Shown here: in pieces, positions 1,447-59,167 of the stretch | Layout: each line of letters opens with the position of its first letter | How positions within the stretch are numbered: position 1 is the stretch's first letter | Assembly (NCBI GenBank): GCA_964350735.1 | Contig: CAYGKO010000003.1 | Span: 52,452-116,451, forward strand | Reading direction: 5' to 3' | Length of the DNA: 64,000 nucleotides | From: an uncultured Candidatus Saccharibacteria bacterium | GTDB lineage: Bacteria; Patescibacteriota; Minisyncoccia; Phycocordibacterales; UBA918 | Notes under the pieces: generated by a model | Seen by the model: the letters and a program-made list of their open reading frames with translations, nothing else | The model's database searches: none | Told to the model about the DNA's origin: nothing | Made by a program: the position numbers and the translations under genes

Positions 1447-4400
1447 ATGTCTGACACGCCGAAACTGACTACTGACTTTGTGCATTTGCACGTGCATTCG
1501 CATTACTCCCTCCTTAATGCTGTTCCCACCCCAAAAGAGCTCGCTGCTACAGCCAAAGCCGACGGCCAAGACGCGCTGGCGATCACCGACGCTGGTGCGC
1601 TGTACGGAGCGATTGATTTCTATCAAGCCTGTCAAAAAGAAGGTATCAAGCCGATCATCGGCCTCGATGCTTTTATGGCACCCCGCACACGCCACGACCG
1701 CGACCCTATGGACAAGCCGCGGAGTCGCCTCGTCCTGCTGGCTAAAACCTTTAAAGGCTACCAAAACCTCATTATGTTGGTTACCCGTGCCAACACTGAA
1801 GGGTTTTACTATCGCCCCCGACTTGATCGTGAACTGCTCACCGAACTGCATGAAGACCTGATTTGTATCGTACCCTCTTTTGCTGGTGAACCAGCCCAAG
1901 CACTCAAGCACGGTGACACCGAAGCCGCCGGTGCTGCCCTTGATTTCTACAAACAACTCTTTAAAGACGATTGCTACCTCGAGATCAGCCACCACCCCGA
2001 GATGCTCGATCACCAAGAAAATCAAGAGCGCCTCAAGAAGCTGGCGGCGGACACCAACACTCCGCTCGTAGCGGCTCAAGATATTTATTACCTCACCAAA
2101 GACGACGCCATTGCTCGAGAAGCGATGATTAAGATCCAAAGTGGCGGCGTTGTAGACACCTCAGCCGAACGCTCCGAAGACTTCTCATTCACGACCCAGG
2201 AGCAAATGAAAGAACGGTTCGCCGATACACCAGAAGCACTTACCAATACGGTAAAAATCGCAGAGCAGTGTAACGTCGAGATTACCCTCGGCATGGAAGC
2301 GTGGAAGTTCCCGAATTACATCATTGAAAGTGGTAAAGAACCTGATGAAGAACTGCGAGATACTGCCTACGCCGGCGTGAAGTGGCGCGGACACGACATC
2401 AATGATGAGGTGGTAAAAAAGCGCCTCGACTATGAACTCGAGGTGATCAAAACTAAAGGCTACGCCAAGTATTTCTTGGTGGTAGGTGACTTGCTGCGTG
2501 AAGCTCGTGAGCGTGGCATCCTCACGACCATTCGAGGTTCGGTGGCTGGTTCGTACGCGACGTACGTGCTTGGAATTACCAACGTGGACCCCCTTGAATA
2601 CAAACTCCCTTTTGAACGATTCTTGAACCCGGAACGTCCATCAGCGCCTGATATCGATATGGACTTTGCCGATAACCGGCGTGACGAAATCATTGAGTAC
2701 GCCAAAAATAAATACGGTGAAGACAAAGTGGCTCAAATCGGCACCTTCGGAACCATGATGGCCCGCGCGGCCGTGCGTGACGTAGCGCGAGCACTCGGCC
2801 ACTCATACAGTACTGGAGACACGATCGCAAAACTCATCCCGATGGGTAGCCAAGGTTTTGCCATGACTATCGATCGAGCGCTTGAAATGGAACCTGATCT
2901 CAAAAAACTCTACAAAGCTGACAGCGAGTCGCGCGAAGTGATCGATCTCGCTAAGCGGATTGAAGGTCGGGTCCGGCACGTCGGTGTTCATGCGGCTGGT
3001 GTAGTAATAGCGCCAGAGCCACTCAATCAATACGTCCCCATCCAACTCGACTCCAAAACTGGCAAGTTCATCACTCAGTACGAAATGCATTCTGTTGGCG
3101 AAGATGGGGTTGGTCTCCTGAAGTTCGACTTTTTGGGTATTAAAAACCTCGCCATCTTAGCTGACGCGGTGAAGCGGGTGAAAGTTACGAGAAATGTTGA
3201 TGTCGATATTGAAAACATTCCGCTTGATGACGCCAAGACATTCAAGATGCTGGCTGAAGGTCAGACCATGGGACTCTTCCAGCTCAATGGCTCCGGGATG
3301 ACCTCGTTCTTAAAGCAGCTCCAACCAAGCAGCATTCACGACATCAATGCGATGGTGGCCTTGTATCGACCGGGACCAATGGAAATGATTCCAACGTATA
3401 TTGAGCGCAAACACAACCAATCCTTAATCACCTACCTTGACCCCCGCCTCGAGAAAATTCTCGATCGTTCCTACGGCGTGATCACCTACCAGGACGATGT
3501 GATGATGACCGCGATTGAACTCGCTGGCTATTCCTGGCTCGATGCCGACAAGCTGCGTAAAGCGATGGGAAAGAAAATTCCGGCAGTGATGGAAGCCGAA
3601 AAAGAAAAACTCATGCAAGGTTTCGCTGAGTACGGCAAACTCACTCCGGCACTGGCAGATAAACTCTGGAAGCTAATCGAGCCCTTTGCGGCGTACGGTT
3701 TTAATAAAGCCCACGCGGCGAGTTATGGCCGCGTCGCTTACCAAACCGCCTACATGAAGGCGAACTTCCCCGTCGAATATATGAGCGCGGTACTGACGGC
3801 AGACTCTGGTGACACCGAAAAAATCTCAGAAATTATTCACGAGTGTGACCGGATGGGTATCGAGGTATTACCCCCAGACGTCAACGAATCTTTCTCAGAC
3901 TTCACGGTGATTCCTGGTACCCAAACCATCCGCTTTGGACTCACGACGATTAAAAACTTCGGTTCTGGCATTGCTGACGCAATTATTGCTGAACGCAAAA
4001 AAGGTGGACCATTTGGTACACTGGCTGACTTCCTGACTCGTGTGCACGATAAAAATCTCAACAAGAAATCCCTCGAAGCGCTTGTCATGACTGGTGCGCT
4101 GAATAGCTTCGCTGAGCGTGGTCTGTTATACGCCAACATCGATACTATGCTTGCCTTCAACCGTGAACACGTCGCCGGCAAAGAGGCTGGTCAAGACTCG
4201 CTCTTTGGTGGTATGGAAACTACTATCAACGACCTTGTCCTTGAGAGCGCTCCTGAAGCCGACCAATCCCAAAAGCTCACTTGGGAACGAGAACTCTTGG
4301 GCGTGTATGTGTCAGGCCACCCGCTCGATGATCACCGCGAAGAATTGCAAAAAGGCGAACGGCGGATGATTGGCGACATTGTGAGTGCGGTCACAGATGG

Positions 4401-4719
4401 TCGTGAGATGGAGGTGGTGCAGATGAAGGGTAAGGTCGACACCGCTGGGATGATTGAAACCGTGAAAGAGCTTCTCACTAAAAAAGGCGATCGTATGGCC
4501 TTTGTCCAACTCTCCAATCACACCAGCACCATCGAAATGGTCGCCTTCCCCGAAGTCTTCCAAACCTACCGAGATCTCCTGGTGCCCGGTACCTGTGTGG
4601 CGCTCCGCGGCAAGCTCAATATTCGCAATGACGAACCAAGTATTCTCATTGATAAAATTAAAGTCCTGTCTCCAGCGCCAGAAACCAATTCAGTTGACGA
4701 ACCGCCAACAATTAGCTAG
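1447..4719 (+). CDS. dnaE: DNA polymerase III alpha subunit (short 1090-aa form with N-terminal PHP domain)
   Basis: HLHVHSHYSLL PHP motif, a polymerase core, and an OB-fold region near the C-terminus. Divergent from rnhB. Confidence 0.95.
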   Translation: MSDTPKLTTDFVHLHVHSHYSLLNAVPTPKELAATAKADGQDALAITDAGALYGAIDFYQACQKEGIKPIIGLDAFMAPRTRHDRDPMDKPRSRLVLLAKTFKGYQNLIMLVTRANTEGFYYRPRLDRELLTELHEDLICIVPSFAGEPAQALKHGDTEAAGAALDFYKQLFKDDCYLEISHHPEMLDHQENQERLKKLAADTNTPLVAAQDIYYLTKDDAIAREAMIKIQSGGVVDTSAERSEDFSFTTQEQMKERFADTPEALTNTVKIAEQCNVEITLGMEAWKFPNYIIESGKEPDEELRDTAYAGVKWRGHDINDEVVKKRLDYELEVIKTKGYAKYFLVVGDLLREARERGILTTIRGSVAGSYATYVLGITNVDPLEYKLPFERFLNPERPSAPDIDMDFADNRRDEIIEYAKNKYGEDKVAQIGTFGTMMARAAVRDVARALGHSYSTGDTIAKLIPMGSQGFAMTIDRALEMEPDLKKLYKADSESREVIDLAKRIEGRVRHVGVHAAGVVIAPEPLNQYVPIQLDSKTGKFITQYEMHSVGEDGVGLLKFDFLGIKNLAILADAVKRVKVTRNVDVDIENIPLDDAKTFKMLAEGQTMGLFQLNGSGMTSFLKQLQPSSIHDINAMVALYRPGPMEMIPTYIERKHNQSLITYLDPRLEKILDRSYGVITYQDDVMMTAIELAGYSWLDADKLRKAMGKKIPAVMEAEKEKLMQGFAEYGKLTPALADKLWKLIEPFAAYGFNKAHAASYGRVAYQTAYMKANFPVEYMSAVLTADSGDTEKISEIIHECDRMGIEVLPPDVNESFSDFTVIPGTQTIRFGLTTIKNFGSGIADAIIAERKKGGPFGTLADFLTRVHDKNLNKKSLEALVMTGALNSFAERGLLYANIDTMLAFNREHVAGKEAGQDSLFGGMETTINDLVLESAPEADQSQKLTWERELLGVYVSGHPLDDHREELQKGERRMIGDIVSAVTDGREMEVVQMKGKVDTAGMIETVKELLTKKGDRMAFVQLSNHTSTIEMVAFPEVFQTYRDLLVPGTCVALRGKLNIRNDEPSILIDKIKVLSPAPETNSVDEPPTIS

Positions 4720-5738: not shown

Positions 5739-7508
5739 ATGAACACAAACCTAGAACACAAACGACACACCCTCGCTCACTTACTCGCTGCTGCGACCTT
5801 GGTCGAGTATCCTCATGCGAAACTCACCCTGGGGCCAGCCATCGACAACGGCTTCTACTACGACATCGACTTTTCTGCTGGTGAAGCGCCAGGTGACGGC
5901 GATCTAAAAAAGATCCAGAAACACATGAAGAAAATGCTCGGACAATGGACTAGTTTTGAACACAAGGAAGTCTCCGCTGATGAAGCTCGGGCTGTATTTG
6001 CAGACAATCAATTCAAGCTTGAACTTGTTAATGAAATTACCGAGAAAGGTGAAACTATCACTCTTTATACCGCCGGCGCTGGCACTAAAGCTGAGTTTAC
6101 TGATCTGTGCCGTGGTGGACACTCTGAGAATCCAGCTGAGGAAATAGCTACTGATGCCTTCAAGCTCGACAAAGTTGCCGGCGCCTACTGGCGCGGGAGC
6201 GAGGAGAACCCGATGCTGACCCGTATCTATGGCCTCGCCTTCGACACCAAAGAAGAGCTCGAGGTGTATGAAACGCAACTGGCCGAAGCCAAGAAGCGCG
6301 ATCATCGCAAGCTTGGTAAAGAGCTTGGTTTGTTTACGTTCTCAGAATTAGTGGGACCAGGTCTCCCGCTATGGACTCCCAAAGGCACCACCATGCGTCG
6401 TCTCATTGATGAATTTGTCACTGGTTTGCGCCGAGAGAAAGGCTATGAAGTAGTAACCATTCCCCACATCGCCAAAAAATCACTCTATGAAACGAGCGGT
6501 CACTGGAATAAATACAGTGAGGACTTATTTAAAGTCCGGGCTAAAGAAGATGACGATGCTGAAGAGTACGTACTTAAGCCAATGAACTGTCCGCATCATA
6601 CTCAAATTTTTGATGCTGAGCCGCGGTCATATCGCGATCTGCCCCAGCGCTACGCTGAAACCACTATGGTGTACCGGGCCGAGCAATCAGGTGAGCTCGC
6701 TGGATTGACCCGCGTCCTGTCTATTACGCAAGATGACGCGCACGTATTTTGTCGAGAATCACAACTGCGTGATGAGATCGAATCAATCTGGGACATCGTC
6801 AATGATTTCTACGGTGCCTTTGGTTTTGAACTCAAGGTTAGACTATCCTTCCACGATCCAGAACAAAAAGATAAATACCTCGGTGACAGCAGTATTTGGG
6901 AATCAACTGAAGGTCTTATGAAAGCAATCGCCGAGGATCGAAAAGCTGAATATTTCATCGGTATTGGCGAAGCTGCCTTTTATGCTCCCAAGCTCGATTT
7001 TATGGCGCTGGACTCGATTGGGCGCACCCATCAAGTTGCCACCATTCAACTTGACCGACTGATGCCAGAACGGTTCGGCCTTACGTGCACTAATGAACAG
7101 GGCGAGAAAGAAGGGATTGTAATGATCCACGCAGCGATTGCTGGTTCTCTGGAGCGCTTCTCAGCCGTCTTGATTGAACACCTTGGTGGCCACTTCCCGC
7201 TCTGGCTCTCGCCCGTGCAGGTCGCGGTGGTACCAGTAGCGGAGGCTCACAATGAGTTTGCTGCCGATGTGAATCGCCAACTTAAAGCGGCTGGTATCCG
7301 AACTGACTTTGACGACAGCAAAGAATCAATGGGTAAGAAAATCCGCAATGCCAAAAACGCCAAGCTCCCCTACTTCCTCGTAATCGGTGACAAAGAAGTG
7401 GAGCGCGGTGGAGTAACCCTCGAAGCACGTGATGGCAACTCCGTAGAACTCACCATTGAAGACATGATGAGTCGTCTACAAGAAGAAATTGAAACTAAGA
7501 AGCTGTAG
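5739..7508 (+). CDS. thrS: Threonyl-tRNA synthetase (589 aa, lacking the N-terminal TGS domain)
   Basis: HTLAHLLA editing-domain His motif, LKPMNCPHH, class II motifs, and an anticodon-binding C-terminus. Confidence 0.95.
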   Translation: MNTNLEHKRHTLAHLLAAATLVEYPHAKLTLGPAIDNGFYYDIDFSAGEAPGDGDLKKIQKHMKKMLGQWTSFEHKEVSADEARAVFADNQFKLELVNEITEKGETITLYTAGAGTKAEFTDLCRGGHSENPAEEIATDAFKLDKVAGAYWRGSEENPMLTRIYGLAFDTKEELEVYETQLAEAKKRDHRKLGKELGLFTFSELVGPGLPLWTPKGTTMRRLIDEFVTGLRREKGYEVVTIPHIAKKSLYETSGHWNKYSEDLFKVRAKEDDDAEEYVLKPMNCPHHTQIFDAEPRSYRDLPQRYAETTMVYRAEQSGELAGLTRVLSITQDDAHVFCRESQLRDEIESIWDIVNDFYGAFGFELKVRLSFHDPEQKDKYLGDSSIWESTEGLMKAIAEDRKAEYFIGIGEAAFYAPKLDFMALDSIGRTHQVATIQLDRLMPERFGLTCTNEQGEKEGIVMIHAAIAGSLERFSAVLIEHLGGHFPLWLSPVQVAVVPVAEAHNEFAADVNRQLKAAGIRTDFDDSKESMGKKIRNAKNAKLPYFLVIGDKEVERGGVTLEARDGNSVELTIEDMMSRLQEEIETKKL

Positions 7509-7530
7509 CAATTATGTTATTATTTTCTAT

Positions 7531-8436
7531 ATGAAACATACACATTTAGCGATCCTAGGTATCCTACTCGCCAGTATCGTTATTGGACTCAGTTATTGCA
7601 CTCAATACTACAAAAGTTCTGCCTCTAATCTGTCGCAAGAGGTTAACACTCTAGAAAAACGTAATATCGTACTAACCTCTGAGCTTGATACGGCGGTGAC
7701 CTTGAACACTAAATTACAAAACAAACTTGATTTAATGACCACAAACGATAGTGCTAATCGTAAATTCTATGAACTGACCGACGGATCGGAAAGATTTGGA
7801 TCTTCATTCGACATTTACACATTCAAAACTGCTGACCACATAGGTACTGTCGAGCACATATGTGAAAACCCCGAAGCGATCATTGAAAAAAATAGTAACA
7901 AATATTGTCAAGCTGATAGCTTTTTCTTACTTAATGTAGATGAGAAAATGAGCATTATCGACTCCTTTACATACACTGAACAAGGGGACGAGATCGGGCT
8001 ATCAATACCCACGTTTAACGAAGGGACAGAGCTGATTGCCACTAGCACCGATCGGTCTTCAGGAAAATTATTGGTAAGTACAAACCCACACTACTGTCTT
8101 TGGGAAGATGGCATGTGTTTCAGCCCTAATACGTTATCCTATATAATAGATATACCAGATGGAAATATAATAAAAGTTCAATTTCAAACTGAACTCTACT
8201 CTCAAGCTCGTTTACACTGGAATGAAGCTGGGACTAAAGCATTTTATCCAATTAGTTGTCCGGCAGGTTGTCCGACGTACTTATTATATGCCTTAGATAT
8301 CAACAAAAATCGAGGTGAAGCACTCATAGATAGAGAAGATTTTGGTGATATATTCTATAAAACGGCCACTTGGATAGACAATGACACAATTGAAGTCATA
8401 AACGACTCAGGTGAGTCGACCGAACTATCGTTCTAA
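7531..8436 (+). CDS. Hypothetical membrane-anchored protein (N-terminal TM helix, coiled coil, Cys-containing extracytoplasmic domain); AT-rich (about 35% GC)
   Basis: First ATG at 7531 (ORF-track start is TTG at 7489). GC is clearly lower than the flanking genes. Followed by a terminator. Confidence 0.6.
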   Translation: MKHTHLAILGILLASIVIGLSYCTQYYKSSASNLSQEVNTLEKRNIVLTSELDTAVTLNTKLQNKLDLMTTNDSANRKFYELTDGSERFGSSFDIYTFKTADHIGTVEHICENPEAIIEKNSNKYCQADSFFLLNVDEKMSIIDSFTYTEQGDEIGLSIPTFNEGTELIATSTDRSSGKLLVSTNPHYCLWEDGMCFSPNTLSYIIDIPDGNIIKVQFQTELYSQARLHWNEAGTKAFYPISCPAGCPTYLLYALDINKNRGEALIDREDFGDIFYKTATWIDNDTIEVINDSGESTELSF

Positions 8437-8493: not shown

Positions 8494-9255
8494 TTATGCC
8501 AGCGCTTTAATCGCTTTCATAATCGCTACCTTCACAGCCGCTTCTTCTGATGGATAGGTACCATCGATCGTTTGGGTTAGAGCCTCAATCGCAGCTTGTA
8601 CTTTACCGTGTGGAGTTTGATCAGCTACTTCTTTCAACATGTCTGAAAGAATGACTGATTCTCCATTTTGATGTCGGTACAACGCATCAAAGTCGGCTGA
8701 AGCACCAGCGAGGGCAATCATTGGACGCTGTCCAATAAGTTGATACGCTGCTACCACATTTCCTTCAATGATCGCTTCAGCGAGTGAGTTAGTTACTGGA
8801 GCCAGTTCAAACTCAGACCGCACAGCCTCTTTCTTAGCTTCAGAAACTACAATTGTTTCTTCGACTACAAGTGGTTGTGCCTTGAGCTCTTCTCGCTTTG
8901 CTGTCAGCTCTTCCATTCGATCACAGTTGAGGACTACCCAACCGTCTTCAGTTGGATAGGTCACCTTAGCTTCAGTAATCACCTTTTCCAAGAATGTCCG
9001 TCGGTTTAGATCCTTATGACATACATTAATGAAGTGCTGCATCGCATCACCTGAGATAAGCACTCGGTGTGTATGTGCTAAGTTTTCAAGTTCTTGCATT
9101 TCCTGACTTAATTCAGTCACTTCAGGATCAACTAATTCTGGCACTTCAGTAGCTACTACCGCTGCGTAGCCAACAGCTGGATTACCCGTTGGTAAGTTAC
9201 TCGGTGCAACCGCAGATGCGATTGTATTAGTAACAGTTTCCACTGTTTCTACCAC
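8494..9255 (-). CDS. Hypothetical 253-aa cytoplasmic protein (GTG start), overlapping the upstream surface-protein gene by 7 nt
   Basis: ORF with no TM segments. The start codon at 9253-9255 is GTG. The first in-frame ATG is about 52 codons downstream. Arrangement suggests translational coupling. Confidence 0.45.
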   Translation of the reverse strand: MVETVETVTNTIASAVAPSNLPTGNPAVGYAAVVATEVPELVDPEVTELSQEMQELENLAHTHRVLISGDAMQHFINVCHKDLNRRTFLEKVITEAKVTYPTEDGWVVLNCDRMEELTAKREELKAQPLVVEETIVVSEAKKEAVRSEFELAPVTNSLAEAIIEGNVVAAYQLIGQRPMIALAGASADFDALYRHQNGESVILSDMLKEVADQTPHGKVQAAIEALTQTIDGTYPSEEAAVKVAIMKAIKALA

Positions 9256-11852
9256 CGGTGATTCTGTCCGCTGTACTTCTGGCTCAGCATCTGTAGTTTT
9301 TTTTTGTAGATCTCATCTTCAGTTGTTACTACACCAGCTACTACAGAAGTACGATTCTTGTAGATGAATACGTATGCTACGAAGAGTGCCCAGAGCGTAA
9401 GAAGTGCGTAGAAGATGAATGTCAGAATTGGACCAGCTTCAAATCCAGTGTATGGCACTTGTGTCAGTGCAATACCAGCCACCCGTGGTTCTTGTGATCG
9501 GTTCTCGAGCACAACCACATCTTCGTCTTCCACTTCAATATTTACTGTACATTCTCGGTCTCGACTACCTCGTTCAACTACTAAAGTGTATTCAGTATCT
9601 TCAGTTGGTCGAACTCGGATACTTCCATCATCTACATCATCATCGTCATCAGTAGAGAAGATTTCTCGATCACCCTTATCTCCTTCGAAGATAGTAAGTT
9701 CTCGTCCTCGACTCGTTTCCCATGAGAGTGTGATTTGTTCACCTGCCTTGATCGTTCGATCAGATGCGGTGAATTCACAACGTGGTCGACTTGATCCTCC
9801 ACCACCTCCACCACCTCGATTTTCTACTGTAATTGTTTCAGTACATGTCACTGGAGTTTCTCCAGCTGCGATAGCAGTAAGTGTGTAGGTGATGTCACCA
9901 ATTGTAGAAGGAGCATTTACAGTGATATCACTATCAGCTGGGAGATTACTTCCGACTCCTTGGTCAATTGACACGCTCTCTGCATTTGTCGTATCCCACC
10001 GGAGGGTGAATGAACCATTTTCAAGTACGGTAGATGGAGTAGCTTGGAAGCTTTCACACACGATGTTGCTACCACTTACTCCTGGCACCACCACGTTAGT
10101 TGGGTCAGTGTCCGTTACTGTCGCACCATCTACAGCTGAATCTCCCGTCACATTTGCCACATTAGTGAATGAAGCTTGTACGTTAGACGTGGCACACGTA
10201 TAGGTATCTGAAGCCCCTTGCGCAAGGCTACCAATTGTCTTGTTACACGCTGCTTCAAGTGGGTCGGTTACTACTACGTTTACCAAATTTTCATTACCAG
10301 TGTTCGTCACTACGATCTCAAAGTTAGCAATGCCACCAGCTGATACTGTCTGTGTATCATCCTTATCAATAGCATCACGCTTGATGATTTCAATTGCTGG
10401 ATTAGTTTGTGTAACAACCGGTGTTACCACAACCGGTGTCGTACATACTGCGTCTGCCTGACCATCTTTACGAGCAGTTAGTGTATAGGTCGTATCGCCA
10501 AGCGCTGGTGTCTCAACAAGCGTAGTTTTATTAGCGTCTGTGCTAATAACCGTAGCTCCTTTAGCAAAGGTAACTGAATCAGCGTTAGTCGTTGTCCAGT
10601 TAAAATTTACCGTTCCTCCTAGAGTAAGTGACTGTGAACCTTTTGGATTCAAATCACAAGTCGGCGCATTAACTGCAACTGCTGTAGTCGTAAGTGTCGC
10701 CGGACACGTAGCAGTCTTTCCAGCCCCATTGTTTACGGTTACGGTGTAGGTTTTGCTGCCAAGATCAGACTGACTTACTGCCTTACTGCCAGCGTTGTTC
10801 GCAACTGTAATCACACCCACACCATTGTTAGCAGAAGCTGATGCAATATTTGATCCACTAACAGTCAGTGTTGATGCCGTATTTACAGTGACTGAACTTG
10901 GAGAGAATGAAGCAGTACAGATTGGATCTGGCACTACTACTGGTGCCGCTGTCGTCGTGAGGGTTGCTGTACAAGACCCAGGCTTACCTTGGTTGTTAAG
11001 TACTGCAATGGTGTAGGTTTTAGTTCCAACTGTTGTCTGGGTTACAGACTTACTACCAGCGTTGTTCGCAATTGTTACCGCTCCAACACTATTATTCACT
11101 GAAGCCGAAGCTAGGTTTGAACCATTGATTTGGAGTGTAGCCGGTGTATTTACCTGAACTGAAGCCGGATTAAATAGCGCCGTACATACTGGATCAGGAT
11201 CTGGTGCTGGTGTAGGTTTTGCATTTACTGTAATTTTCACATTACAAGTCCGCTCCACACCATCAGCGTTTTTCACTGTACCAGTGAATACACGATTTGT
11301 ACCAGTTACGGTCACAGTAGTACTAAGGGGCTGGTTATTTATACCAATCGCTCCCTTACCACGATCCAATTTCGCAGAAACAGCATTGGTTCCCTTAAGC
11401 GTAAACGTAACTTGGTCACCCGCAGTGATAGTCAAGTTAGACTGACCATTCACTTTAAGGACACAAGATGGAATTGGGGCTGATACAACTCCAGGGTCAT
11501 CACGATCAGGCTCTGGGTTAGTCGGAGTACTTGGCTCGTCATCACGACCGCTGCCGCTACCACAACCACCGCAACCATTTCCACCTCCAGAGTTACCAGA
11601 GCCACCATTTGATGTACCCCCGGTACCAAAACCGCCGTCTCCACCAGCACCTTCGCCACCGCCAGAACCAGAACCTCCTCCAGAGCCGCCAGAGCCACCG
11701 TCAGAGTCTCCGCCAGAACCAAAAGCTTCAGCTTGAATTTCTTCGCTTGAGAACTCAAAAAATGATTGTACTTGTGGGAGTGCAATATAAGAAACCACTA
11801 CCGCAACTGCGATTGGGAAAATTAATTTTTTGAATGGAATATTTTTTTTCAT
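9249..11852 (-). CDS. Large secreted surface protein (868 aa) with N-terminal signal/TM, Gly/Ser-rich linker, tandem Ig-like/DUF11-like repeats and a C-terminal VPYTG + hydrophobic + basic sorting-like signal
   Basis: ATG at 11852 (MKKNIPFKKLIFPIAVAVVV). Two near-identical ~90-aa domains (CTATLTTTA...SKTYT). C-terminus ...LTQVPYTGFEAGPILTFIFYALLTLWALFVAYVFIYKNR. Confidence 0.75.
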   Translation of the reverse strand: MKKNIPFKKLIFPIAVAVVVSYIALPQVQSFFEFSSEEIQAEAFGSGGDSDGGSGGSGGGSGSGGGEGAGGDGGFGTGGTSNGGSGNSGGGNGCGGCGSGSGRDDEPSTPTNPEPDRDDPGVVSAPIPSCVLKVNGQSNLTITAGDQVTFTLKGTNAVSAKLDRGKGAIGINNQPLSTTVTVTGTNRVFTGTVKNADGVERTCNVKITVNAKPTPAPDPDPVCTALFNPASVQVNTPATLQINGSNLASASVNNSVGAVTIANNAGSKSVTQTTVGTKTYTIAVLNNQGKPGSCTATLTTTAAPVVVPDPICTASFSPSSVTVNTASTLTVSGSNIASASANNGVGVITVANNAGSKAVSQSDLGSKTYTVTVNNGAGKTATCPATLTTTAVAVNAPTCDLNPKGSQSLTLGGTVNFNWTTTNADSVTFAKGATVISTDANKTTLVETPALGDTTYTLTARKDGQADAVCTTPVVVTPVVTQTNPAIEIIKRDAIDKDDTQTVSAGGIANFEIVVTNTGNENLVNVVVTDPLEAACNKTIGSLAQGASDTYTCATSNVQASFTNVANVTGDSAVDGATVTDTDPTNVVVPGVSGSNIVCESFQATPSTVLENGSFTLRWDTTNAESVSIDQGVGSNLPADSDITVNAPSTIGDITYTLTAIAAGETPVTCTETITVENRGGGGGGGSSRPRCEFTASDRTIKAGEQITLSWETSRGRELTIFEGDKGDREIFSTDDDDDVDDGSIRVRPTEDTEYTLVVERGSRDRECTVNIEVEDEDVVVLENRSQEPRVAGIALTQVPYTGFEAGPILTFIFYALLTLWALFVAYVFIYKNRTSVVAGVVTTEDEIYKKKLQMLSQKYSGQNHRW

Positions 11853-11968
11853 AATAAATTTGATAAGTAAGTAATGTGTTACCTCTGTATATTCCCACCT
11901 ACACCAGTACGCGAGAATATAAAAGGTGAGAAGCCGATCACAAAGTGACCGCCTTCCCAAATCTTGAA

Positions 11969-12523
11969 TCAGGAGCGCGGGTATGCATCACGACCCGGGT
12001 CGCAGACGCACGCCAAGGCGCTGTCGAGCGGCACCAAGGTGATGTTGTTACATACCGCCGGGACATAAACTTCCCAACGGTGATTAACATTATCCCCTTG
12101 TGGGACCGTGACCCACCATTTCCGACAGATGAACAGCTTGCGCGTCCATTCGTCGGTGACGACAGTCGGATTGATGGAAATGAACCCATCACCCGAAATC
12201 ATTGCACCTGGCAGTATCTTTCCGCGATACTGTGTATCCAGGTTGATGAGCTCGTCGCCGTCAGGTCGAGTCAGCAGAGCGTTTCGGATCATGATCCGCT
12301 CTCGCTGAGAAAGGTTCAGTCGCCCAATTGCCAGAGCTTCTCTGAAACCATCCTTAACGAAACGCTCTTGCAAGGATGCTCCACCCCCGTCTGACCAACG
12401 AAGAGTTCCGTCAGCCATGAGGGTTCCGTTCTGGAAGACCGGACCCTTAGGAGAATCTGCACCAACAGGAAGCGGAGCAATAAAGCTCGCAGCCATACCA
12501 GCACAGAATGAACGCCTGTTCAT
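11969..12523 (-). CDS. Hypothetical secreted protein with twin-arginine-like signal (MNRRSFCAGMAASFIAPLPVGA); part of the GC-rich island
   Basis: ATG at 12523 with AAGGA SD. About 60% GC, against about 50% in neighbouring genes. Confidence 0.6.
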   Translation of the reverse strand: MNRRSFCAGMAASFIAPLPVGADSPKGPVFQNGTLMADGTLRWSDGGGASLQERFVKDGFREALAIGRLNLSQRERIMIRNALLTRPDGDELINLDTQYRGKILPGAMISGDGFISINPTVVTDEWTRKLFICRKWWVTVPQGDNVNHRWEVYVPAVCNNITLVPLDSALACVCDPGRDAYPRS

Positions 12524-12526
12524 TGG

Positions 12527-13039
12527 CTATCCTTTCGGTTTGACCATCCAAATGGCCGCTGCGTTATCCTTCGAGTTAGCGAAGGCTGGATCATCATGCC
12601 TCGTCTCGATTGAGCCATGACAGTTGACCGTTGGCCCTCCATTTGCTGGAAAAGCTTTCTGGAGACCGATCGCTGGCCAAGAAGACGGTGCTTTGACACA
12701 GATGTCGCGACCCGGCGCCTTCATGCTGTCGGGCGCCTCGAAGTACCAGGTGCCGTTGTGCTCAAGCTCGAGCGTAACGACGTGTGTTTCGCCAGTCGGG
12801 TTGCCGCTGAGGTAGCCGAGAAAAGTGAACGTACCGGTAGCCGGCTTGATCTCACCCTTCTTCAGAGCTTTCTCGAACGCGACAATCATTTGGCCGTCAT
12901 CGAAGTTATATGCGCGGGCGATTTCCCACACCTTCTCAGATTCTTCAACGGCGACCAAACCGGTCCACCATTTCCCGTCAGCCAAAGCTGGGGTAACAAA
13001 GCAAAGCGCCATAACAGCGCTCAAAAGAATGCGAAGCAT
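12527..13039 (-). CDS. Hypothetical secreted protein (signal peptide MLRILLSAVMALCFVTPALA); part of the GC-rich island
   Basis: ATG at 13039 with GGAGA SD. The ORF-track start at 13075 is TTG. Confidence 0.6.
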   Translation of the reverse strand: MLRILLSAVMALCFVTPALADGKWWTGLVAVEESEKVWEIARAYNFDDGQMIVAFEKALKKGEIKPATGTFTFLGYLSGNPTGETHVVTLELEHNGTWYFEAPDSMKAPGRDICVKAPSSWPAIGLQKAFPANGGPTVNCHGSIETRHDDPAFANSKDNAAAIWMVKPKG

Positions 13040-13288
13040 GTCGCTCTCCAATTCTGATTCAATTTCAAAGTTCAATTACTCCCTCTACCATCCACGGCGA
13101 TAAGGTTGAACTTACTCGTGCGATGGCAGCGAGCTTGGTTGCAAGAAACGGACGACGCTCATAGGAGCGCGTTTCTTAGGACCAAGCTTGCTAGGAATAT
13201 GTTGTGAGATACTGCGACTTCCTCAATATGATGAGGACTCGCTTCGTTCATCTGTGAACTACTTTACTCTACTATTGTAGCATATCTA

Positions 13289-13431
13289 TTGACTTTTGTC
13301 AATATAATTGTCTAGTTATTTATTGGTCCAGCAATTTCTTCTAAAGAGGTAGAAAATTGGTAACTTGTACCCTGTGGGTATAAATTCAATATAGTCGTTG
13401 CACTCCTTATTTCATTCAACTTTTGTCAATA
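13289..13431. repeat. Two copies of the 13-mer ACTTTTGTCAATA (13292-13304 and 13419-13431) in an AT-rich intergenic region; the first copy is within the palindrome TTGACttttGTCAA
   Basis: Direct repeats read from the sequence. Lies upstream of the island genes and downstream of the sortase gene. Confidence 0.4.
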
Positions 13432-13482
13432 CTATGGTGCAACTGAATAATGGATCCGAGCGATCCTCAGAGCCATTATTAC

Positions 13483-14211
13483 TTATAGTTGTACGGTCTT
13501 TACTAATGTCGCTTCAAGGATAAACCGGTCATCTGTCGAGCCGAAGCTATCGCACGTTGCGAGCGTAAGCTTAGCCTTATCATCGCTCATTGGCACCGTC
13601 ACTTCAGAGGCTTTGGCTTCGTAGACGCGATCTACGCGGTAGATATATTCAGTATCGATAGACTGCACGCGCACGGTATCACCCCACGAGAGCTTCTGGA
13701 TACCGTTAAAGGCCTGAAAATTCTTATTGAGTACGTTCGGCAAGTAACTAGAATGGCCTAGAATAAGGATGTTTCCGGTATTTTTGAAGTCGGCTGAATC
13801 AGGATGACGTACTACTCCACCTAAAAGCGCCGCATCAAGGTCGGCAACAGCTCGAGAAGTTGGGTTTTTTACCACTACTTCCCGGCCACCAAGGGAGTCA
13901 AAAATGATCTTGGTCGGCAAGGCAGCCGCATCTAGTACCTCAGCTTTTGACTCAGGTTCAATCACTGCTAGTGGCGCCCGCTCTCGCACTTCTGCAACTG
14001 CTTCGACTACAGTGTCTGACACCCCAGCTACCAGCTCATCTACTATTGTCACCGCCGAATCAGAGGATTTTTCTACCGGCTCTGGAATGAAATCTACTAC
14101 AAACAGAACGAAATACGTGAACAGTACCGTACCAAAAAAGACCCCAAAAAAAGCGAGCTTTTGGCGCTTGATTTGCTCATATACGTCCCAAAAGGTGTCG
14201 GATAGGTTCAT
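13483..14211 (-). CDS. Sortase-family transpeptidase (N-terminal TM anchor)
   Basis: Conserved His (ILILGHSSY), catalytic Cys in a TLxTC motif (KLTLATCDSFG), and a downstream Arg. Length and topology are typical of a sortase. Confidence 0.7.
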   Translation of the reverse strand: MNLSDTFWDVYEQIKRQKLAFFGVFFGTVLFTYFVLFVVDFIPEPVEKSSDSAVTIVDELVAGVSDTVVEAVAEVRERAPLAVIEPESKAEVLDAAALPTKIIFDSLGGREVVVKNPTSRAVADLDAALLGGVVRHPDSADFKNTGNILILGHSSYLPNVLNKNFQAFNGIQKLSWGDTVRVQSIDTEYIYRVDRVYEAKASEVTVPMSDDKAKLTLATCDSFGSTDDRFILEATLVKTVQL

Positions 14212-14434: not shown

Positions 14435-15481
14435 ATGAATAATGTAACTCAAGAATCAAAAGATTCAGTCATGAAGACCATGGCAGTAGTGGGATTTGTT
14501 GCAGTCATCATCTTTGCAGTATGGCTCGCAGTCCAAATCGTACAGCTCATCCCTGGCGCCTTCACCTCACTCGCCTCTATTGCAGATGGTGTCTACGGCA
14601 ATCGTCCGGTCGCTGAATTTACAGTCGCTTCAAATGAAAGTGTGGTAAACACTGGCGAAGACTTCACACTTTCGTGGACAAACGTAAACCAAAACGGTAC
14701 GTACTCATTTATGTACAAATGTACTGATGGTGTATCAGTTGATATCCGAAACAATGCTGGGGAAATCGTCAGCATTGCTTGCGACACACCACTTGGTCTT
14801 GGTACTGAGGTAACATCACTAGAAATTGCAGCTGCTTCCGAAAAGAAGCGGTTTACAGACGTGGGTTATACCGTCGCCTTCCGCCCAAATGGAGCGGCAG
14901 ATGTAGCCGCTTCACAAAGTGGTAAGTTCACAGTAGTGAACCCCAGTATTCCACAAAGTGTCGCTGTAGCAGATGATACAGACGAATCAGAAGGTGAAGT
15001 AGCTGGTGAAACAACCTCTACTGAATCAGAAGAAGATACTGTTGATCCGGCTCCAGTCGTATCTACTCCAGCTCCCACAGTGATCGAAACACCCATCATT
15101 GCTATCCCAACTTCAGATCCCAACGGATTTACTGACTTGGAAGTGCGATTCCTCGGCGTTGGTACCATGGACAATAATAACCGTTTCACCCAAACCGCAA
15201 CTATCGACAACGATCGTCGGGGAGCGTATCAGTTTGAAGTGAAGAACACTGGTACTAAAACTTCTACTGCTTGGGAGTATGCTGCCATTCTTACATCAGG
15301 GACTGAATACGAATCAGGGCGACAAGATCCACTCAAGCCAAACGAACGATCAGTAATCACTCTTGGTTTTGATGCAGTTGGTGAAACTGGCGTCCAATTC
15401 TTCGGAGCTACCGTTTCAGGCGGAAGTGACCGAAACCGAAACAACAACAGCTTCACCTGGGCAGTTGAAGTAACGAACTAA
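14435..15481 (+). CDS. Hypothetical membrane-anchored extracytoplasmic protein (348 aa) with acidic Thr/Ser linker
   Basis: ORF with a TM segment (MAVVGFVAVIIFAVWLAV). Followed by a strong terminator. Alternative ATG at 14471. Confidence 0.6.
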   Translation: MNNVTQESKDSVMKTMAVVGFVAVIIFAVWLAVQIVQLIPGAFTSLASIADGVYGNRPVAEFTVASNESVVNTGEDFTLSWTNVNQNGTYSFMYKCTDGVSVDIRNNAGEIVSIACDTPLGLGTEVTSLEIAAASEKKRFTDVGYTVAFRPNGAADVAASQSGKFTVVNPSIPQSVAVADDTDESEGEVAGETTSTESEEDTVDPAPVVSTPAPTVIETPIIAIPTSDPNGFTDLEVRFLGVGTMDNNNRFTQTATIDNDRRGAYQFEVKNTGTKTSTAWEYAAILTSGTEYESGRQDPLKPNERSVITLGFDAVGETGVQFFGATVSGGSDRNRNNNSFTWAVEVTN

Positions 15482-37705: not shown

Positions 37706-38749
37706 TTATTTCCGCTTGAACTCAAACGTTCTGAAGAAGCCCCGAATCAAAAAATACAGCAGGAATATACTTAGCAAACCGCCAGCAACAAACGTCCAAG
37801 GGATAACCCAAAAACTCACTACAGCTGTGTCAATAATATTTTCATACCCTCGATTCAGTTGCACCTCTGCCTGGTACCGCCCGAACAACACCTCTCGATC
37901 CCAACTAATTTCACGAAGACGTACTGACCCTGGAAGTACAAACCAGGGCTGTAATTCAACAAAACCAACTTCTTCTCCTAGCAAATTAGTAATACGGATT
38001 TCACCATACGGGTTTAGGTGTACCGAACCTTGATTTTCGTACACTACATCAAAATTAACGGGACCTTGATTAAAAAATGTCTGTTTATTTCTAGTAGAAA
38101 AATCTTGCAATATACCACCCCGTTCGACTGCACCAGGAATTGACACAAAAAACAGAGATCCGATCCGACTCACAATTGCAGAGGACGGTAGTGTCCTCGG
38201 ATCAGAGCCATTATTAGCTTCTTTAGTAACCGTTTTAACCAACACACTTCCATACAACCCACCTGGCTCGGCATCAGGAGGCACGCTAATTGTGACAGGA
38301 ATGATAGCTCGCTTCGCGTGATCTAAGGGAAATTCTAGATCTGGGATTTTAATATAGTCTTTAATAGTGTACGGCCCAGTCTGACTACCAAGCAGCTCCA
38401 CCGATCGCTTTGGGTCATTTGAACTACGAATGTCTTCAATCTCAATGGAAAACGTTTGCTCTTTTCCAATTCTATTAGCTACACTGATCTCAACTGTTTT
38501 TGATTCACCTGGAGCGATTTCAAGCTCAACCTTACCTGGGCTCATTACGAAATCACCCACCACATCGTCGAACGGTAATGATTCGAGTCGATAGGCTGGC
38601 TGTTGCTCAGTTACTACTTCAGATTCAGGCGCTTCAATTGAACTACTTGCAGATGTAAAATCTTCTTGAGCCAGAGATGTCTCAGAGAAAATGAATAAAA
38701 TTACACTAACACTAAAAAATAGAGAACTGGGGTGGCGTATAACAGACAT
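37706..38749 (-). CDS. DUF916/DUF3324-like cell-surface protein with C-terminal TM anchor (347 aa)
   Basis: Signal peptide. PG(E/Q).K..V.V.N pattern typical of DUF916. Single C-terminal TM plus basic tail. Size and topology match CscA-type proteins. Confidence 0.5.
   Translation of the reverse strand: MSVIRHPSSLFFSVSVILFIFSETSLAQEDFTSASSSIEAPESEVVTEQQPAYRLESLPFDDVVGDFVMSPGKVELEIAPGESKTVEISVANRIGKEQTFSIEIEDIRSSNDPKRSVELLGSQTGPYTIKDYIKIPDLEFPLDHAKRAIIPVTISVPPDAEPGGLYGSVLVKTVTKEANNGSDPRTLPSSAIVSRIGSLFFVSIPGAVERGGILQDFSTRNKQTFFNQGPVNFDVVYENQGSVHLNPYGEIRITNLLGEEVGFVELQPWFVLPGSVRLREISWDREVLFGRYQAEVQLNRGYENIIDTAVVSFWVIPWTFVAGGLLSIFLLYFLIRGFFRTFEFKRK

Positions 38750-48961: not shown

Positions 48962-59167
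<10,206 letters not shown>

What the first reader, a model, noticed from the sequence alone, without database searches (positions are those of the whole stretch)
9249..14211. Sortase gene near a large surface protein carrying a non-canonical VPYTG-type C-terminal sorting signal
Seen in sequence:
- The 242-aa protein at 13483-14211 has an N-terminal TM helix, a conserved His (ILILGHSSY) and a TLxTC catalytic Cys (KLTLATCDSFG).
- About 1.6 kb away, the 868-aa surface protein (9249-11852) ends with ...LTQVPYTG, then a 28-residue hydrophobic stretch, then KNR. This is the tripartite architecture of sortase substrates, but with VPYTG instead of LPXTG and an unusually long 33-aa tail after the basic residues.
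- The surface protein also carries two near-identical ~90-aa Ig-like repeats and a long Gly/Ser linker.
- A 253-aa GTG-start ORF overlaps its 3' end by 7 nt, suggesting coupling.

Established knowledge: sortase catalytic motifs and the LPXTG / hydrophobic / basic sorting signal.

Inference: this may be a sortase-substrate pair with variant motif specificity in a CPR-like cell envelope.
Basis: partly seen in the sequence, partly recalled or inferred. Interest (0 to 1): 0.6.

Follow-up and report, generated by a model that had tools for sequence, protein, structure and literature searches.

The report
Sortase, VPYTG substrate, poly-A frameshift
A Patescibacteria (CPR) genome carries a conserved sortase next to one dedicated surface protein with a VPYTG anchoring signal, and the "separate" 253-aa gene behind it is really that protein's cytoplasmic domain, reachable only by slipping one base at a run of nine A's, so the cell probably makes a short and a long form of its sortase substrate.

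Summary
A true sortase lies at 13483-14211 (-) and an 867-aa surface protein at 9249-11852 (-). The surface protein ends in VPYTG, a 28-residue hydrophobic segment, KNR and a 33-aa tail. A 253-aa ORF overlaps its end by 7 nt.

The pair is conserved across Paceibacteria. In 60 of 62 informative genome loci, and 27 of 29 metagenome loci, the sortase sits directly upstream of a [VILT]P[YH]TG-FEAGP-TM protein.

The interpretation needs revising. In about 80% of relatives, the TM segment is followed in frame by a 250-300-aa cytoplasmic domain. That domain is the window's 253-aa ORF.

In 18 of 19 split cases, the window included, the junction is an A9 or A10 run and ORF2 lies in the -1 frame. ORF2 is under purifying selection (dN/dS 0.13-0.25, dS saturated). 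The split arose several times. A clade that lost ORF2 keeps only A7 at that site.

The best reading is a dedicated sortase-substrate pair whose gene is recoded at a poly-A run, by transcriptional slippage or -1 frameshifting. This would give a short, classically tailed form and a long form. The long form carries a domain whose predicted fold resembles clamp-loader domains II-III.

No biochemistry is available. I rate it a new variant of known kinds.

The parts
13483..14211 (-). Sortase, 242 aa. It has an N-terminal TM helix (about residues 18-40), an acidic low-complexity linker, and a catalytic domain with His153, Cys220 (TLATC) and Arg229.
   Evidence: Pfam PF04203 scores 61.4 bits (cutoff 26.6). 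No NCBIfam class model reaches its cutoff. More than 1666 homologs were found. H153, C220 and R229 are invariant in 46 sequences. The AF2 model matches class E, A, F and D sortases with Foldseek probability 1.0.
9249..11852 (-). Frame-0 product of the substrate gene, 867 aa. It comprises an N-terminal hydrophobic signal/anchor, a Gly/Ser linker, six Cys-bounded Ig-like modules, a DUF7507/DUF11 (CLIPPER) domain, VPYTG, a TM segment, KNR, and a 33-aa tail ending ...KKKLQMLSQKYSGQNHRW.
   Evidence: The C-terminal module is conserved in all 9 database hits and in 60 of 77 sortase loci.
9444..9458 (-). Codons for V-P-Y-T-G, the presumed sortase recognition pentapeptide. Cleavage is expected between T and G.
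   Evidence: P, Y, T and G are invariant in 63 of 63 proteins found through the sortase, not through the motif. Across 136 members, position 1 is V 114, I 13, T 5 and L 4.
9351..9443 (-). FEAGP plus the hydrophobic membrane segment (28 aa) and the basic stop-transfer KNR.
   Evidence: F5, A7, G8, P9, T12, F15, Y16, W22 and Y28 are near-invariant, and [RK][KR] sits at +33/+34.
9297..9305 (-). A9 run (AAA AAA AAA = KKK). It is the proposed slippage site where one extra A, or a -1 ribosomal shift, joins the frame-0 protein to ORF2.
   Evidence: It is the only homopolymer of 9 or more bases in the 64-kb window. 18 of 19 split relatives have an A9 or A10 run at the junction, always needing +1 nt. 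Fisher p = 5e-17.
8494..9312 (-). The -1 frame open reading frame. It is open from 9312, just upstream of the A9 run. The mechanically called 253-aa ORF starts at GTG 9253-9255. It encodes a disordered linker with a PSNLPTG motif and two folded cytoplasmic domains. Joined at the run, the product would be 1119 aa.
   Evidence: It is fused in frame to the TM in 93 of 115 complete relatives. dN/dS is 0.13-0.25 between split lineages. The AF2 model has pLDDT of 85 or more over residues 50-125 and 160-252. The fold is similar to clamp-loader tau/delta domains. The domain is always C-terminal, in 497 clusters.
14435..15481 (+). Divergently transcribed 348-aa protein with an N-terminal membrane anchor and two Ig-like domains. 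It is a conserved neighbour and a possible third member of the cluster.
   Evidence: A homolog lies on the opposite strand about 1 kb upstream of the sortase in 69 of 77 loci, and also in the divergent subfamily. Conserved residues are listed. It has no Pfam family.
11969..13075 (-). Two lineage-specific ORFs (184 and 182 aa) inserted between the sortase and its substrate. They are not part of the conserved system.
   Evidence: Homologs occur in only 1 of 77 loci. Local GC is higher. In most relatives the gap between sortase and substrate is only about 60-130 nt.

Best explanation
This is a dedicated sortase and its single substrate. The pair is conserved as core genes in Paceibacteria (Patescibacteria/CPR).

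The substrate is a secreted, Ig-domain-rich surface protein held in the membrane by a C-proximal helix. The membrane-anchored sortase is inferred to recognise the exofacial, juxtamembrane [VILT]-P-[YH]-T-G. It would cleave after Thr and transfer the ectodomain to the cell wall. The G-FEAGP-TM fragment would stay in the membrane.

Unlike classical substrates, the ancestral gene continues past the membrane helix into a ~290-aa cytoplasmic region. This region has a disordered linker with an NLPTG motif, then two helical domains whose predicted fold resembles the lid and collar domains of clamp-loader subunits.

In the window, and in about one fifth of lineages, that region lies in the -1 frame behind a run of 9-10 A's. 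Standard decoding gives a short form with a conventional short cytoplasmic tail. Adding one A during transcription (RNA polymerase slippage, known to be efficient on A9/T9 runs), or a -1 ribosomal slip on A_AAA_AAA/G, gives the long 1119-aa form.

What is shown:
- the enzyme family;
- motif conservation;
- gene adjacency;
- fusion in relatives;
- the link between the A run and the frame change;
- purifying selection on ORF2.

What is inferred:
- cleavage at VPYT|G;
- cell-wall attachment;
- that slippage really yields both forms, and in what ratio;
- the role of the cytoplasmic domain (possibly oligomerisation, or coupling of the surface layer to a cytoplasmic partner).
For: Sortase:
- Pfam hit above cutoff.
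- Invariant His/Cys/Arg.
- Sortase fold.

Substrate link:
- A [VT]PYTG+TM protein lies immediately downstream on the same strand in 60 of 77 sortase-anchored loci.
- Of the 17 without it, all but L012 and L040 have a downstream ORF cut by the contig end or under about 2 kb of downstream DNA.
- 27 of 29 motif-anchored metagenome loci with at least 1.5 kb of upstream DNA have the sortase upstream. These include divergent IPYTG/FWL-type members with distant sortases.
- The constraint pattern is that of a sortase pentapeptide. P, T and G are fixed, and position 1 is V/I/T/L, including canonical LPYTG.
- In class I relatives the frame-0 protein ends VPYTG-TM-KKKVS*, a textbook tripartite signal.

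One gene, not two:
- The 253-aa ORF is fused in frame in 93 relatives.
- The domain is always C-terminal.

Recoding:
- 12 of the 14 A9 runs on the sortase strand in 1.21 Mb lie within 300 nt after the motif (p = 1e-20).
- 18 of 19 splits have an A9/A10 run at the junction, against 3 of 96 fused genes (p = 5e-17).
- All 18 need +1 nt.
- The run stays at 9 or more through synonymous changes: ATA AAA AAA AAG, ATT AAA AAA AAA, GTA AAA AAA AAA.
- Class I has no start codon in ORF2's frame. Homology (KKK-GFLGF...) resumes at the run.
- ORF2 dN/dS is 0.13-0.25 with saturated dS.
- Splits are scattered over the sortase tree in at least 5 clades.
- The clade that lost ORF2 has only A7 at the homologous site.
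- Independent assemblies agree on run length (L080/L081, L082/L083).
- No consistent hairpin or SD stimulator is present. This fits RNA polymerase slippage, which is efficient on runs of 9 A or T (PMC5009743).
- An experimentally proven precedent for two length variants from a poly-A-interrupted gene is tssM (PMC4256274).
Against: - There is no biochemical evidence. Cleavage at VPYTG, wall linkage and the existence of two protein forms are all inferred.
- The whole block DnaE-ThrRS-substrate-sortase-348aa-GyrB-PheTS is syntenic across the lineage. Adjacency alone is therefore weaker evidence of a functional link than it looks.
- No curated sorting-signal model (TIGR01167, PF00746) matches.
- The residues after the pentapeptide (FEAGP) and the TM helix are far more conserved than in known sorting signals.
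- A large cytoplasmic domain after a sorting signal has, to my knowledge, no precedent.
- In the window's class (II), the frame-0 tail KKK[LV]xxLxxKY..W is itself conserved.
- A GTG overlaps the stop in the window, so independent initiation of ORF2 cannot be excluded here.
- Most data are MAGs. L079 is a 3x long-read contig, where homopolymer length is unreliable.
Confidence: 0.6

Rival explanations
1. True gene fission with translational coupling. In the window the cytoplasmic domain is made as a separate 253-aa protein. It is initiated at the GTG that overlaps the stop codon (GTGGTAG). The A9 run is only the scar of the frameshift mutation that split the gene.
For: A GTG or TTG lies within 16 nt of the frame-0 stop in WIN, L079, L026 and L036. 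The frame-0 tail is conserved at the protein level, including a Trp whose codon supplies the xTG. In the overlap, frame 0 scores higher than the -1 frame (1.41 against 0.86 BLOSUM per residue).
Against: L080, L084 and L102 have no start codon near the stop. Their first starts lie 38-113 nt downstream, and in L084 and L102 these fall beyond the conserved NLPxG motif. The -1 frame is open from the run in all seven class II loci. All seven use AAA AAA AAA despite saturated dS (p = 4e-6 by codon usage). No SD-like sequence precedes the window's GTG. The clade that lost ORF2 let the run decay to A7. Class I cannot work this way at all.
Confidence: 0.2
2. The protein is not a sortase substrate. PYTGFEAGP plus the helix is a structural or recognition element of a bitopic receptor-like envelope protein. 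The sortase lies next to it only because the whole region is a frozen core-genome block. The sortase's real substrates are elsewhere in the genome.
For: About 12 genes around the pair are syntenic. The motif context and TM are conserved far beyond a pentapeptide. A large cytoplasmic domain follows in most members. No LPXTG-anchor HMM hit was found.
Against: The motif has exactly the variability profile of sortase signals and includes LPYTG. It sits at the outer face of the helix and is followed by basic residues. Repeated evolution placed a stop 2-15 codons after the basic cluster, creating canonical signals. Extra paralogs with VPYTG-TM-RRRK-short tail occur next to the main gene (L055, L069). 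No other candidate substrate is found in the 64-kb window.
Confidence: 0.15
3. Artefact or decay. The A9 is a homopolymer miscall of a genomic A10, so the gene is simply fused. Alternatively the split is a recent inactivating mutation or a DNA-level phase-variable switch.
For: Homopolymers are error-prone. All data are metagenome assemblies, and L079 is a 3x long-read contig. Poly-A runs are hotspots for replication slippage.
Against: The same frame relation recurs in 18 loci from many projects, mostly SPAdes or MEGAHIT short-read assemblies. Independent samples give identical runs. L082/L083 have A10 and still need +1 nt. No fused A10 variant was seen in any split clade. The direction is uniform at 18 of 18. 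ORF2 stays under purifying selection with saturated dS, which excludes recent decay.
Confidence: 0.05

Closest known systems
Housekeeping and dedicated sortases with LPXTG-type sorting signals. Examples: class A/E sortases; class C SrtC with the VPDTG pilin RrgC (PMC5640630); the proteobacterial 'class GN/marine' sortase with its single target (NCBIfam TIGR03784; the single target is from my own knowledge).
   Same: It has the sortase fold and the His-Cys-Arg triad with a TLxTC motif, plus an N-terminal membrane anchor. The substrate has an N-terminal signal, an xPxTG pentapeptide at the outer face of a hydrophobic segment, and basic residues after it. The genes are arranged one enzyme to one neighbouring target, as in the dedicated systems.
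   Different: It scores far below every curated class cutoff (23-34 bits against 140-165). The signal is V-P-Y-T-G with an invariant FEAGP extension and a strongly conserved 28-residue helix. In most members the signal is not C-terminal but is followed by a ~290-aa cytoplasmic domain. The pair is a core, syntenic gene pair of a CPR class rather than an accessory adhesin system.
dnaX tau/gamma expression. E. coli uses -1 ribosomal frameshifting at A AAA AAG. Thermus thermophilus uses transcriptional slippage on a run of nine (PMC5009743).
   Same: The slip site is a run of nine A's, or an A_AAA_AAG heptamer, coding Lys-Lys(-Lys). A short and a long product come from one gene. Both arrangements occur among relatives: long form in frame 0 (L002, L054, L199) or short form in frame 0 (window and 17 others). 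This mirrors the 'reversed' dnaX arrangements discussed in the review.
   Different: The gene is unrelated, encoding a membrane/surface protein. No conserved SD-like or hairpin stimulators are present. The shift site precedes the extra domain rather than following domain III. No experimental evidence exists. The clamp-loader-like predicted fold of the extra domain is a structural resemblance only.
Citrobacter rodentium / Yersinia tssM: transcriptional frameshifting at a poly-A tract gives two length variants, both needed (PMC4256274). Also the poly(A)-interrupted genes of Buchnera/Blochmannia rescued by polymerase infidelity (cited in PMC5009743).
   Same: An envelope protein gene is interrupted just after a poly-A run, with the C-terminal domain in another frame. 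The arrangement is conserved in relatives. The organism has a reduced genome, like the endosymbionts.
   Different: Here the run is 9-10 A's rather than 11. The arrangement arose repeatedly at three different positions in one gene family. The two forms differ in whether a sortase-type signal is followed by a cytoplasmic domain.
C-peptide signalling after sortase cleavage in streptococci, as summarised in PMC11502775.
   Same: After cleavage at the pentapeptide, a membrane-embedded C-terminal fragment remains and can have a function of its own.
   Different: Known C-peptides are about 30 residues with no folded domain. Here the remnant would carry a ~290-aa cytoplasmic region. No histidine kinase partner is evident near the locus.

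Membership tests
Sortase superfamily (Pfam PF04203) | Profile match above the curated threshold | tested here: met
   61.4 bits against a cutoff of 26.6, covering residues 112-237.
Sortase superfamily (Pfam PF04203) | Catalytic His, Cys (TLxTC) and Arg | tested here: met
   H153 (LGHSSY), C220 (TLATC) and R229 are invariant in a 46-sequence alignment.
Sortase superfamily (Pfam PF04203) | Eight-stranded beta-barrel sortase fold | tested here: met
   The AF2 model has pLDDT 75 overall and above 85 in the core strands. Foldseek gives probability 1.0 and TM-score 0.6-0.8 (target-normalised) to class E, A, F, D and C sortases.
Sortase superfamily (Pfam PF04203) | Transpeptidase activity on a sorting signal | not testable with these tools
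   Needs recombinant enzyme and a VPYTG peptide.
Curated sortase classes A-F and GN (NCBIfam) | Score at or above the class model cutoff | tested here: not met
   The best hits are class D at 34.3 (cutoff 165), class E at 32.9 (160), class C at 23.8 (160), GN at 23.4 (158) and the generic TIGR01076 at 29.7 (39.35). It belongs to no named class.
LPXTG-type cell-wall sorting signal | Pentapeptide [L/V/I..]-P-x-T-G | tested here: met
   VPYTG is encoded at 9444-9458. P, T and G are invariant in 63 of 63 sortase-anchored relatives. Four members have LPYTG.
LPXTG-type cell-wall sorting signal | Hydrophobic segment then basic residues directly after the motif | tested here: met
   A 28-residue uncharged segment is followed by KNR. 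[RK][KR] sits at +33/+34 in 60 of 63.
LPXTG-type cell-wall sorting signal | Signal lies at the extreme C-terminus, with only a few residues after the basic cluster | tested here: not met
   The window has 33 residues after KNR in frame 0, and 320 residues from the motif's Pro if read through the run. In 93 relatives a tail of about 270-330 aa follows. The feature is met only in class I frame-0 products (KKKVS*).
LPXTG-type cell-wall sorting signal | Match to curated anchor models (TIGR01167, PF00746) | tested here: not met
   No hit at E <= 0.01 in Pfam or NCBIfam.
LPXTG-type cell-wall sorting signal | Cleavage between T and G and linkage to peptidoglycan | not testable with these tools
   Needs cell-wall proteomics or an in vitro assay.
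Recoding by transcriptional slippage / -1 frameshifting at a homopolymer | Slippery run (at least 9 A/T) or X_XXY_YYZ heptamer at the frame junction | tested here: met
   A9 at 9297-9305 is the only such run in the window. 18 of 19 split relatives have A9/A10 at the junction.
Recoding by transcriptional slippage / -1 frameshifting at a homopolymer | The downstream frame continues the homologous protein and is under purifying selection | tested here: met
   A one-A insertion makes all split genes collinear with fused homologs. dN/dS is 0.13-0.25.
Recoding by transcriptional slippage / -1 frameshifting at a homopolymer | Site conserved across diverged lineages, beyond codon-usage expectation | tested here: met
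   The run is kept at 9 or more through synonymous changes. Seven class II lineages all use AAA AAA AAA (p = 4e-6). The run is A7 where ORF2 is lost.
Recoding by transcriptional slippage / -1 frameshifting at a homopolymer | Stimulatory SD-like element upstream or hairpin downstream (dnaX-type ribosomal frameshifting only) | tested here: not met
   Downstream folding z-scores range from +2.6 to -3.1 with no shared structure, and SD-like sequences are rare. This lowers the dnaX-type PRF reading but not RNA-polymerase slippage.
Recoding by transcriptional slippage / -1 frameshifting at a homopolymer | Heterogeneous mRNA or two protein products observed | not testable with these tools
   Needs RNA-seq/amplicon sequencing and protein mass spectrometry.
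Clamp-loader subunit (DnaX/HolA/HolB) C-terminal domains, for the cytoplasmic domain | Lid-plus-collar fold | tested here: inconclusive
Clamp-loader subunit (DnaX/HolA/HolB) C-terminal domains, for the cytoplasmic domain | Sequence-level family membership and an AAA+ ATPase module | tested here: not met
   No Pfam or PDB profile hit below E 0.1. No Rossmann/P-loop domain is present. It should not be filed as a clamp-loader protein.

The most novel reading that the evidence does not exclude
Paceibacteria use a poly-A slippage site to set the ratio of two forms of their one core sortase substrate. The short form would be released to the wall. The long form's clamp-loader-like cytoplasmic domain would oligomerise or signal. 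Sortase cleavage would then physically uncouple a surface layer from a cytoplasmic assembly. This would be a sortase substrate that spans the membrane with a folded cytoplasmic domain, which has not been described, combined with programmed recoding in CPR bacteria.
Probability: 0.3. Interest if true: 0.85.

Novelty: new variant of a known kind. Interest (0 to 1): 0.66.

Why it matters
CPR/Patescibacteria make up a large share of bacterial diversity, yet how their envelope is built is unclear. More than half of them encode a sortase (PMC6744442), but I found no published substrate or recognition motif for it.

This locus offers three things:
- A concrete, testable enzyme-substrate pair, with a defined motif ([VILT]P[YH]TG-FEAGP) and a conserved helix.
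- A sortase-type signal that, in most members, is followed by a folded cytoplasmic domain. This departs from the textbook rule that sorting signals are C-terminal.
- Comparative evidence for homopolymer-mediated recoding in these reduced genomes. Gene callers currently read such genes as two genes, or as a 'hypothetical protein' plus a truncated adhesin.

It also gives an annotation rule. An ORF encoding this domain behind an A9/A10 run belongs to the upstream gene.

Tried and rejected
- Other xPxTG+TM termini in the 64-kb window: none found. A second sortase: none.
- Literature on VPYTG, CPR sortase substrates, and slippage or frameshifting in Patescibacteria: nothing relevant.
- Pfam, NCBIfam and PDB profile searches for the cytoplasmic domain and the 348-aa neighbour: no significant family.
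- Downstream hairpins and upstream SD-like stimulators at 18 slip sites: no consistent signal. I therefore do not claim dnaX-type stimulated frameshifting.
- Rfam scan of the window: only the tRNA. tRNA scan: only tRNA-Thr, so the tRNA-Lys repertoire could not be assessed.
- Adjacency as specific evidence of function: weakened once the whole DnaE...PheS block proved syntenic.
- Extra split examples from P0133, P0136 and P0137: no DNA, a contig-end fragment, and an isolated low-coverage copy, so uninformative.
- AFDB fold search: the library was unavailable.
- Pilin-type polymerisation (class C-like): considered and not pursued. The ectodomain is too variable to carry a conserved pilin-motif Lys. 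No such motif was noticed by eye in the 348-aa neighbour's conservation profile, and no motif search was run.
- Cluster look-up for source names: none were given.

Full report
**1. The observation**

- A 242-aa protein at 13483-14211 (-) contains ILILGHSSY and KLTLATCDSFG.
- An 867-aa protein at 9249-11852 (-) ends ...ALTQVPYTG. This is followed by a 28-residue uncharged segment, then KNR, then 33 further residues.
- A GTG-started 253-aa ORF (8494-9255, -) overlaps the stop by 7 nt.
- The two Ig-like repeats are only 62% identical. They are two of six Cys-bounded modules.
- In 64 kb there is one sortase and one xPxTG-plus-helix terminus.

**2. The enzyme**

- The protein matches Pfam Sortase at 61 bits, against a cutoff of 26.6.
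- It falls far below every curated class model of NCBIfam.
- It has more than 1666 database homologs, typically about 55% identical.
- His153, Cys220 and Arg229 are invariant in 46 of these.
- An AlphaFold model (pLDDT 75) matches solved class E, A, F, D and C sortases with probability 1.0.
- The N-terminal membrane helix is itself strongly conserved.

**3. The organism and the neighbourhood**

Seventy-seven genome loci found through the sortase come from Paceibacteria, Kaiserbacteria, Nomurabacteria and other Patescibacteria MAGs.

In 60 of them, a protein carrying [VT]PYTG plus a helix lies directly downstream on the same strand. Of the 17 others, all but two either have a downstream ORF cut by the contig end or keep less than about 2 kb of downstream DNA.

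The signal is remarkably fixed: G-I-S-L-[TS]-Q-V-P-Y-T-G-F-[ED]-A-G-P, followed by a helix with near-invariant Thr, Phe-Tyr, Trp and Tyr, then [RK][KR].

An independent metagenome scan used only the motif's DNA pattern. It gave 71 family members. Of the 29 with at least 1.5 kb of upstream DNA, 27 have the sortase upstream. These include a divergent IPYTG subfamily with distant sortases.

Position 1 of the pentapeptide varies V/I/T/L, and four members have canonical LPYTG.

One caveat applies. The entire block DnaE-ThrRS-substrate-sortase-348-aa protein-GyrB-PheT-PheS is syntenic across these genomes. Adjacency is therefore partly inherited gene order.

Méheust et al. noted that more than half of CPR genomes encode a sortase (PMC6744442). 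I found no paper describing its substrate or motif.

**4. The 253-aa ORF is part of the same gene**

Database hits to the substrate's C-terminus showed the first sign. In several, the helix is followed by 150-200 more residues homologous to the window's separate ORF.

Across all collected loci the counts are as follows:
- 93 have the cytoplasmic domain fused in frame without a long A run;
- 3 have it fused in frame with an in-frame A9 run;
- 19 have it split;
- 11 lack it.

A profile search of 1.84 billion representatives finds 497 clusters. The domain is always at the C-terminus. About a quarter of the best hits are stand-alone ORFs of 180-280 aa.

**5. The frame junction is a poly-A run**

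- In 18 of the 19 split loci the junction holds an A9 run. One species has A10.
- ORF2 is always in the -1 frame, so one extra A restores a protein collinear with fused homologs, right to the conserved end ...DGTYxxExxAVKxAIMKAxK.
- The window's run is at 9297-9305. It is the only homopolymer of 9 or more bases in 64 kb.
- In 1.21 Mb of related loci, 12 of the 14 A9 runs on the sortase strand fall within 300 nt after the motif (p = 1e-20).
- The association between run and split gives Fisher p = 5e-17.

The runs occur at three positions:
- Class I: directly after the helix. Frame 0 ends KKKVS* or similar, a textbook sorting signal.
- Class II: about 50 residues after the motif, as in the window. 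Frame 0 ends in a conserved tail, KKK[LV]xxLxxKY..W.
- Class III: about 100 residues after the motif.

**6. This is not error or decay**

- The run stays at 9 or more through synonymous changes: ATA AAA AAA AAG, ATT AAA AAA AAA, GTA AAA AAA AAA.
- Independent samples give identical runs.
- No fused A10 allele appears in any split clade.
- ORF2 shows dN/dS of 0.13-0.25 with saturated dS between split lineages.
- Split lineages fall in at least five clades of the sortase tree.
- The Kaiserbacteria-type clade that lost ORF2 retains only A7 at the homologous site.
- Class I has no start codon in ORF2's frame, and homology resumes exactly at the run.
- In class II, three of seven lineages lack a start codon near the stop. 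Stop-start coupling therefore cannot be the general mechanism, although it remains possible in the window itself.
- No conserved hairpin or SD-like stimulator was found.

Two features favour RNA-polymerase slippage: the apparent need for at least 9 A's, and the uniform direction, always needing an added base. Slippage is efficient on runs of nine and mainly adds bases (PMC5009743). Ribosomal -1 slippage on A_AAA_AAA/G is not excluded. The tssM gene of Citrobacter is an experimentally proven parallel (PMC4256274).

**7. The cytoplasmic domain**

- It has no Pfam, NCBIfam or PDB sequence relatives.
- It has no ATPase module.
- I treat this as a fold resemblance only. It hints at oligomerisation or a protein-binding role.

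**8. Verdict**

The sortase call is right, and VPYTG is very probably its dedicated signal.

The signal is normally followed by a folded cytoplasmic domain. In the window that domain is reached only through a -1 shift at an A9 run.

All functional steps remain inferences: cleavage, wall attachment, the existence of two isoforms, and the role of the domain. I rate it a new variant of known kinds (a sortase system, and poly-A recoding) with above-average interest.

Noticed in passing
window 11969-13075 (-): Two ORFs lie between the sortase and its substrate. One is 184 aa with a Tat-like MNRRSFCAG N-terminus, and the other is 182 aa. Local GC is about 0.50, against 0.44-0.46 nearby. Homologs occur in only 1 of 77 related loci, so this looks like a lineage-specific insertion into an otherwise tight gene pair.
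   Followed up: partly
window 11842-11849: A second long run (T8, which is A8 on the coding strand) sits at codons 2-4 of the same surface-protein gene (ATG AAA AAA AAT).
   Followed up: no
window 39711-48953 and 48962-59167 (-): Two adjacent giant ORFs of 3080 aa (LamG/concanavalin-like domain) and 3401 aa (LVIVD repeat). Neither has a sortase-type terminus. A 347-aa neighbour (37706-38749) weakly matches the WxL-interacting peptidoglycan-binding domain.
   Followed up: partly
window 8494-9255 (-), ORF residues 19-25; related loci: A conserved x-N-L-P-[TV]-[GA] motif (PSNLPTG in the window) lies in the disordered cytoplasmic linker of 48 of 55 long tails. It looks LPxTG-like but is one residue short and is on the cytoplasmic side. 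Its function is unknown.
   Followed up: partly
L024, L039, L041, L042, L104, L119, L157: A Kaiserbacteria-type clade has lost the cytoplasmic domain altogether. It keeps the conserved frame-0 tail RKKVEALVAKY[ST]G, with only A7 at the site where class II genomes have A9.
   Followed up: yes
window 8494-9255 (-) and 1447-4719 (+): The cytoplasmic domain's predicted fold resembles DnaX/HolA clamp-loader domains. The gene also uses a dnaX-like A-run shift site and lies two genes from dnaE. This is probably coincidence, but it is unexplained.
   Followed up: no
window 13483-14211 (-) residues 1-45; 9360-9443 (-): Both the sortase's membrane helix (F21, F25, Y33, L36, D40 and P43 invariant) and the substrate's helix (T, FY, W and Y near-invariant) are unusually conserved. 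This suggests helix-helix recognition within the membrane.
   Followed up: no
L055 15299-16384, L069 13840-14925, L033 15623-17410: Some genomes carry a second, smaller paralog right after the main gene. It has VPYTG (or VPETG), a helix, RRRK and a short C-terminal tail, which is a fully canonical sorting signal.
   Followed up: partly
window 7489-8436 (+): A 315-aa ORF lies between ThrRS and the substrate gene. It has no homolog in any of the 77 related loci and no Pfam or NCBIfam hit.
   Followed up: no
L031 4500-5324: This is the single split locus without an A run. Its ORF2 is in the +1 frame, so it is probably a real pseudogene or an assembly error.
   Followed up: no
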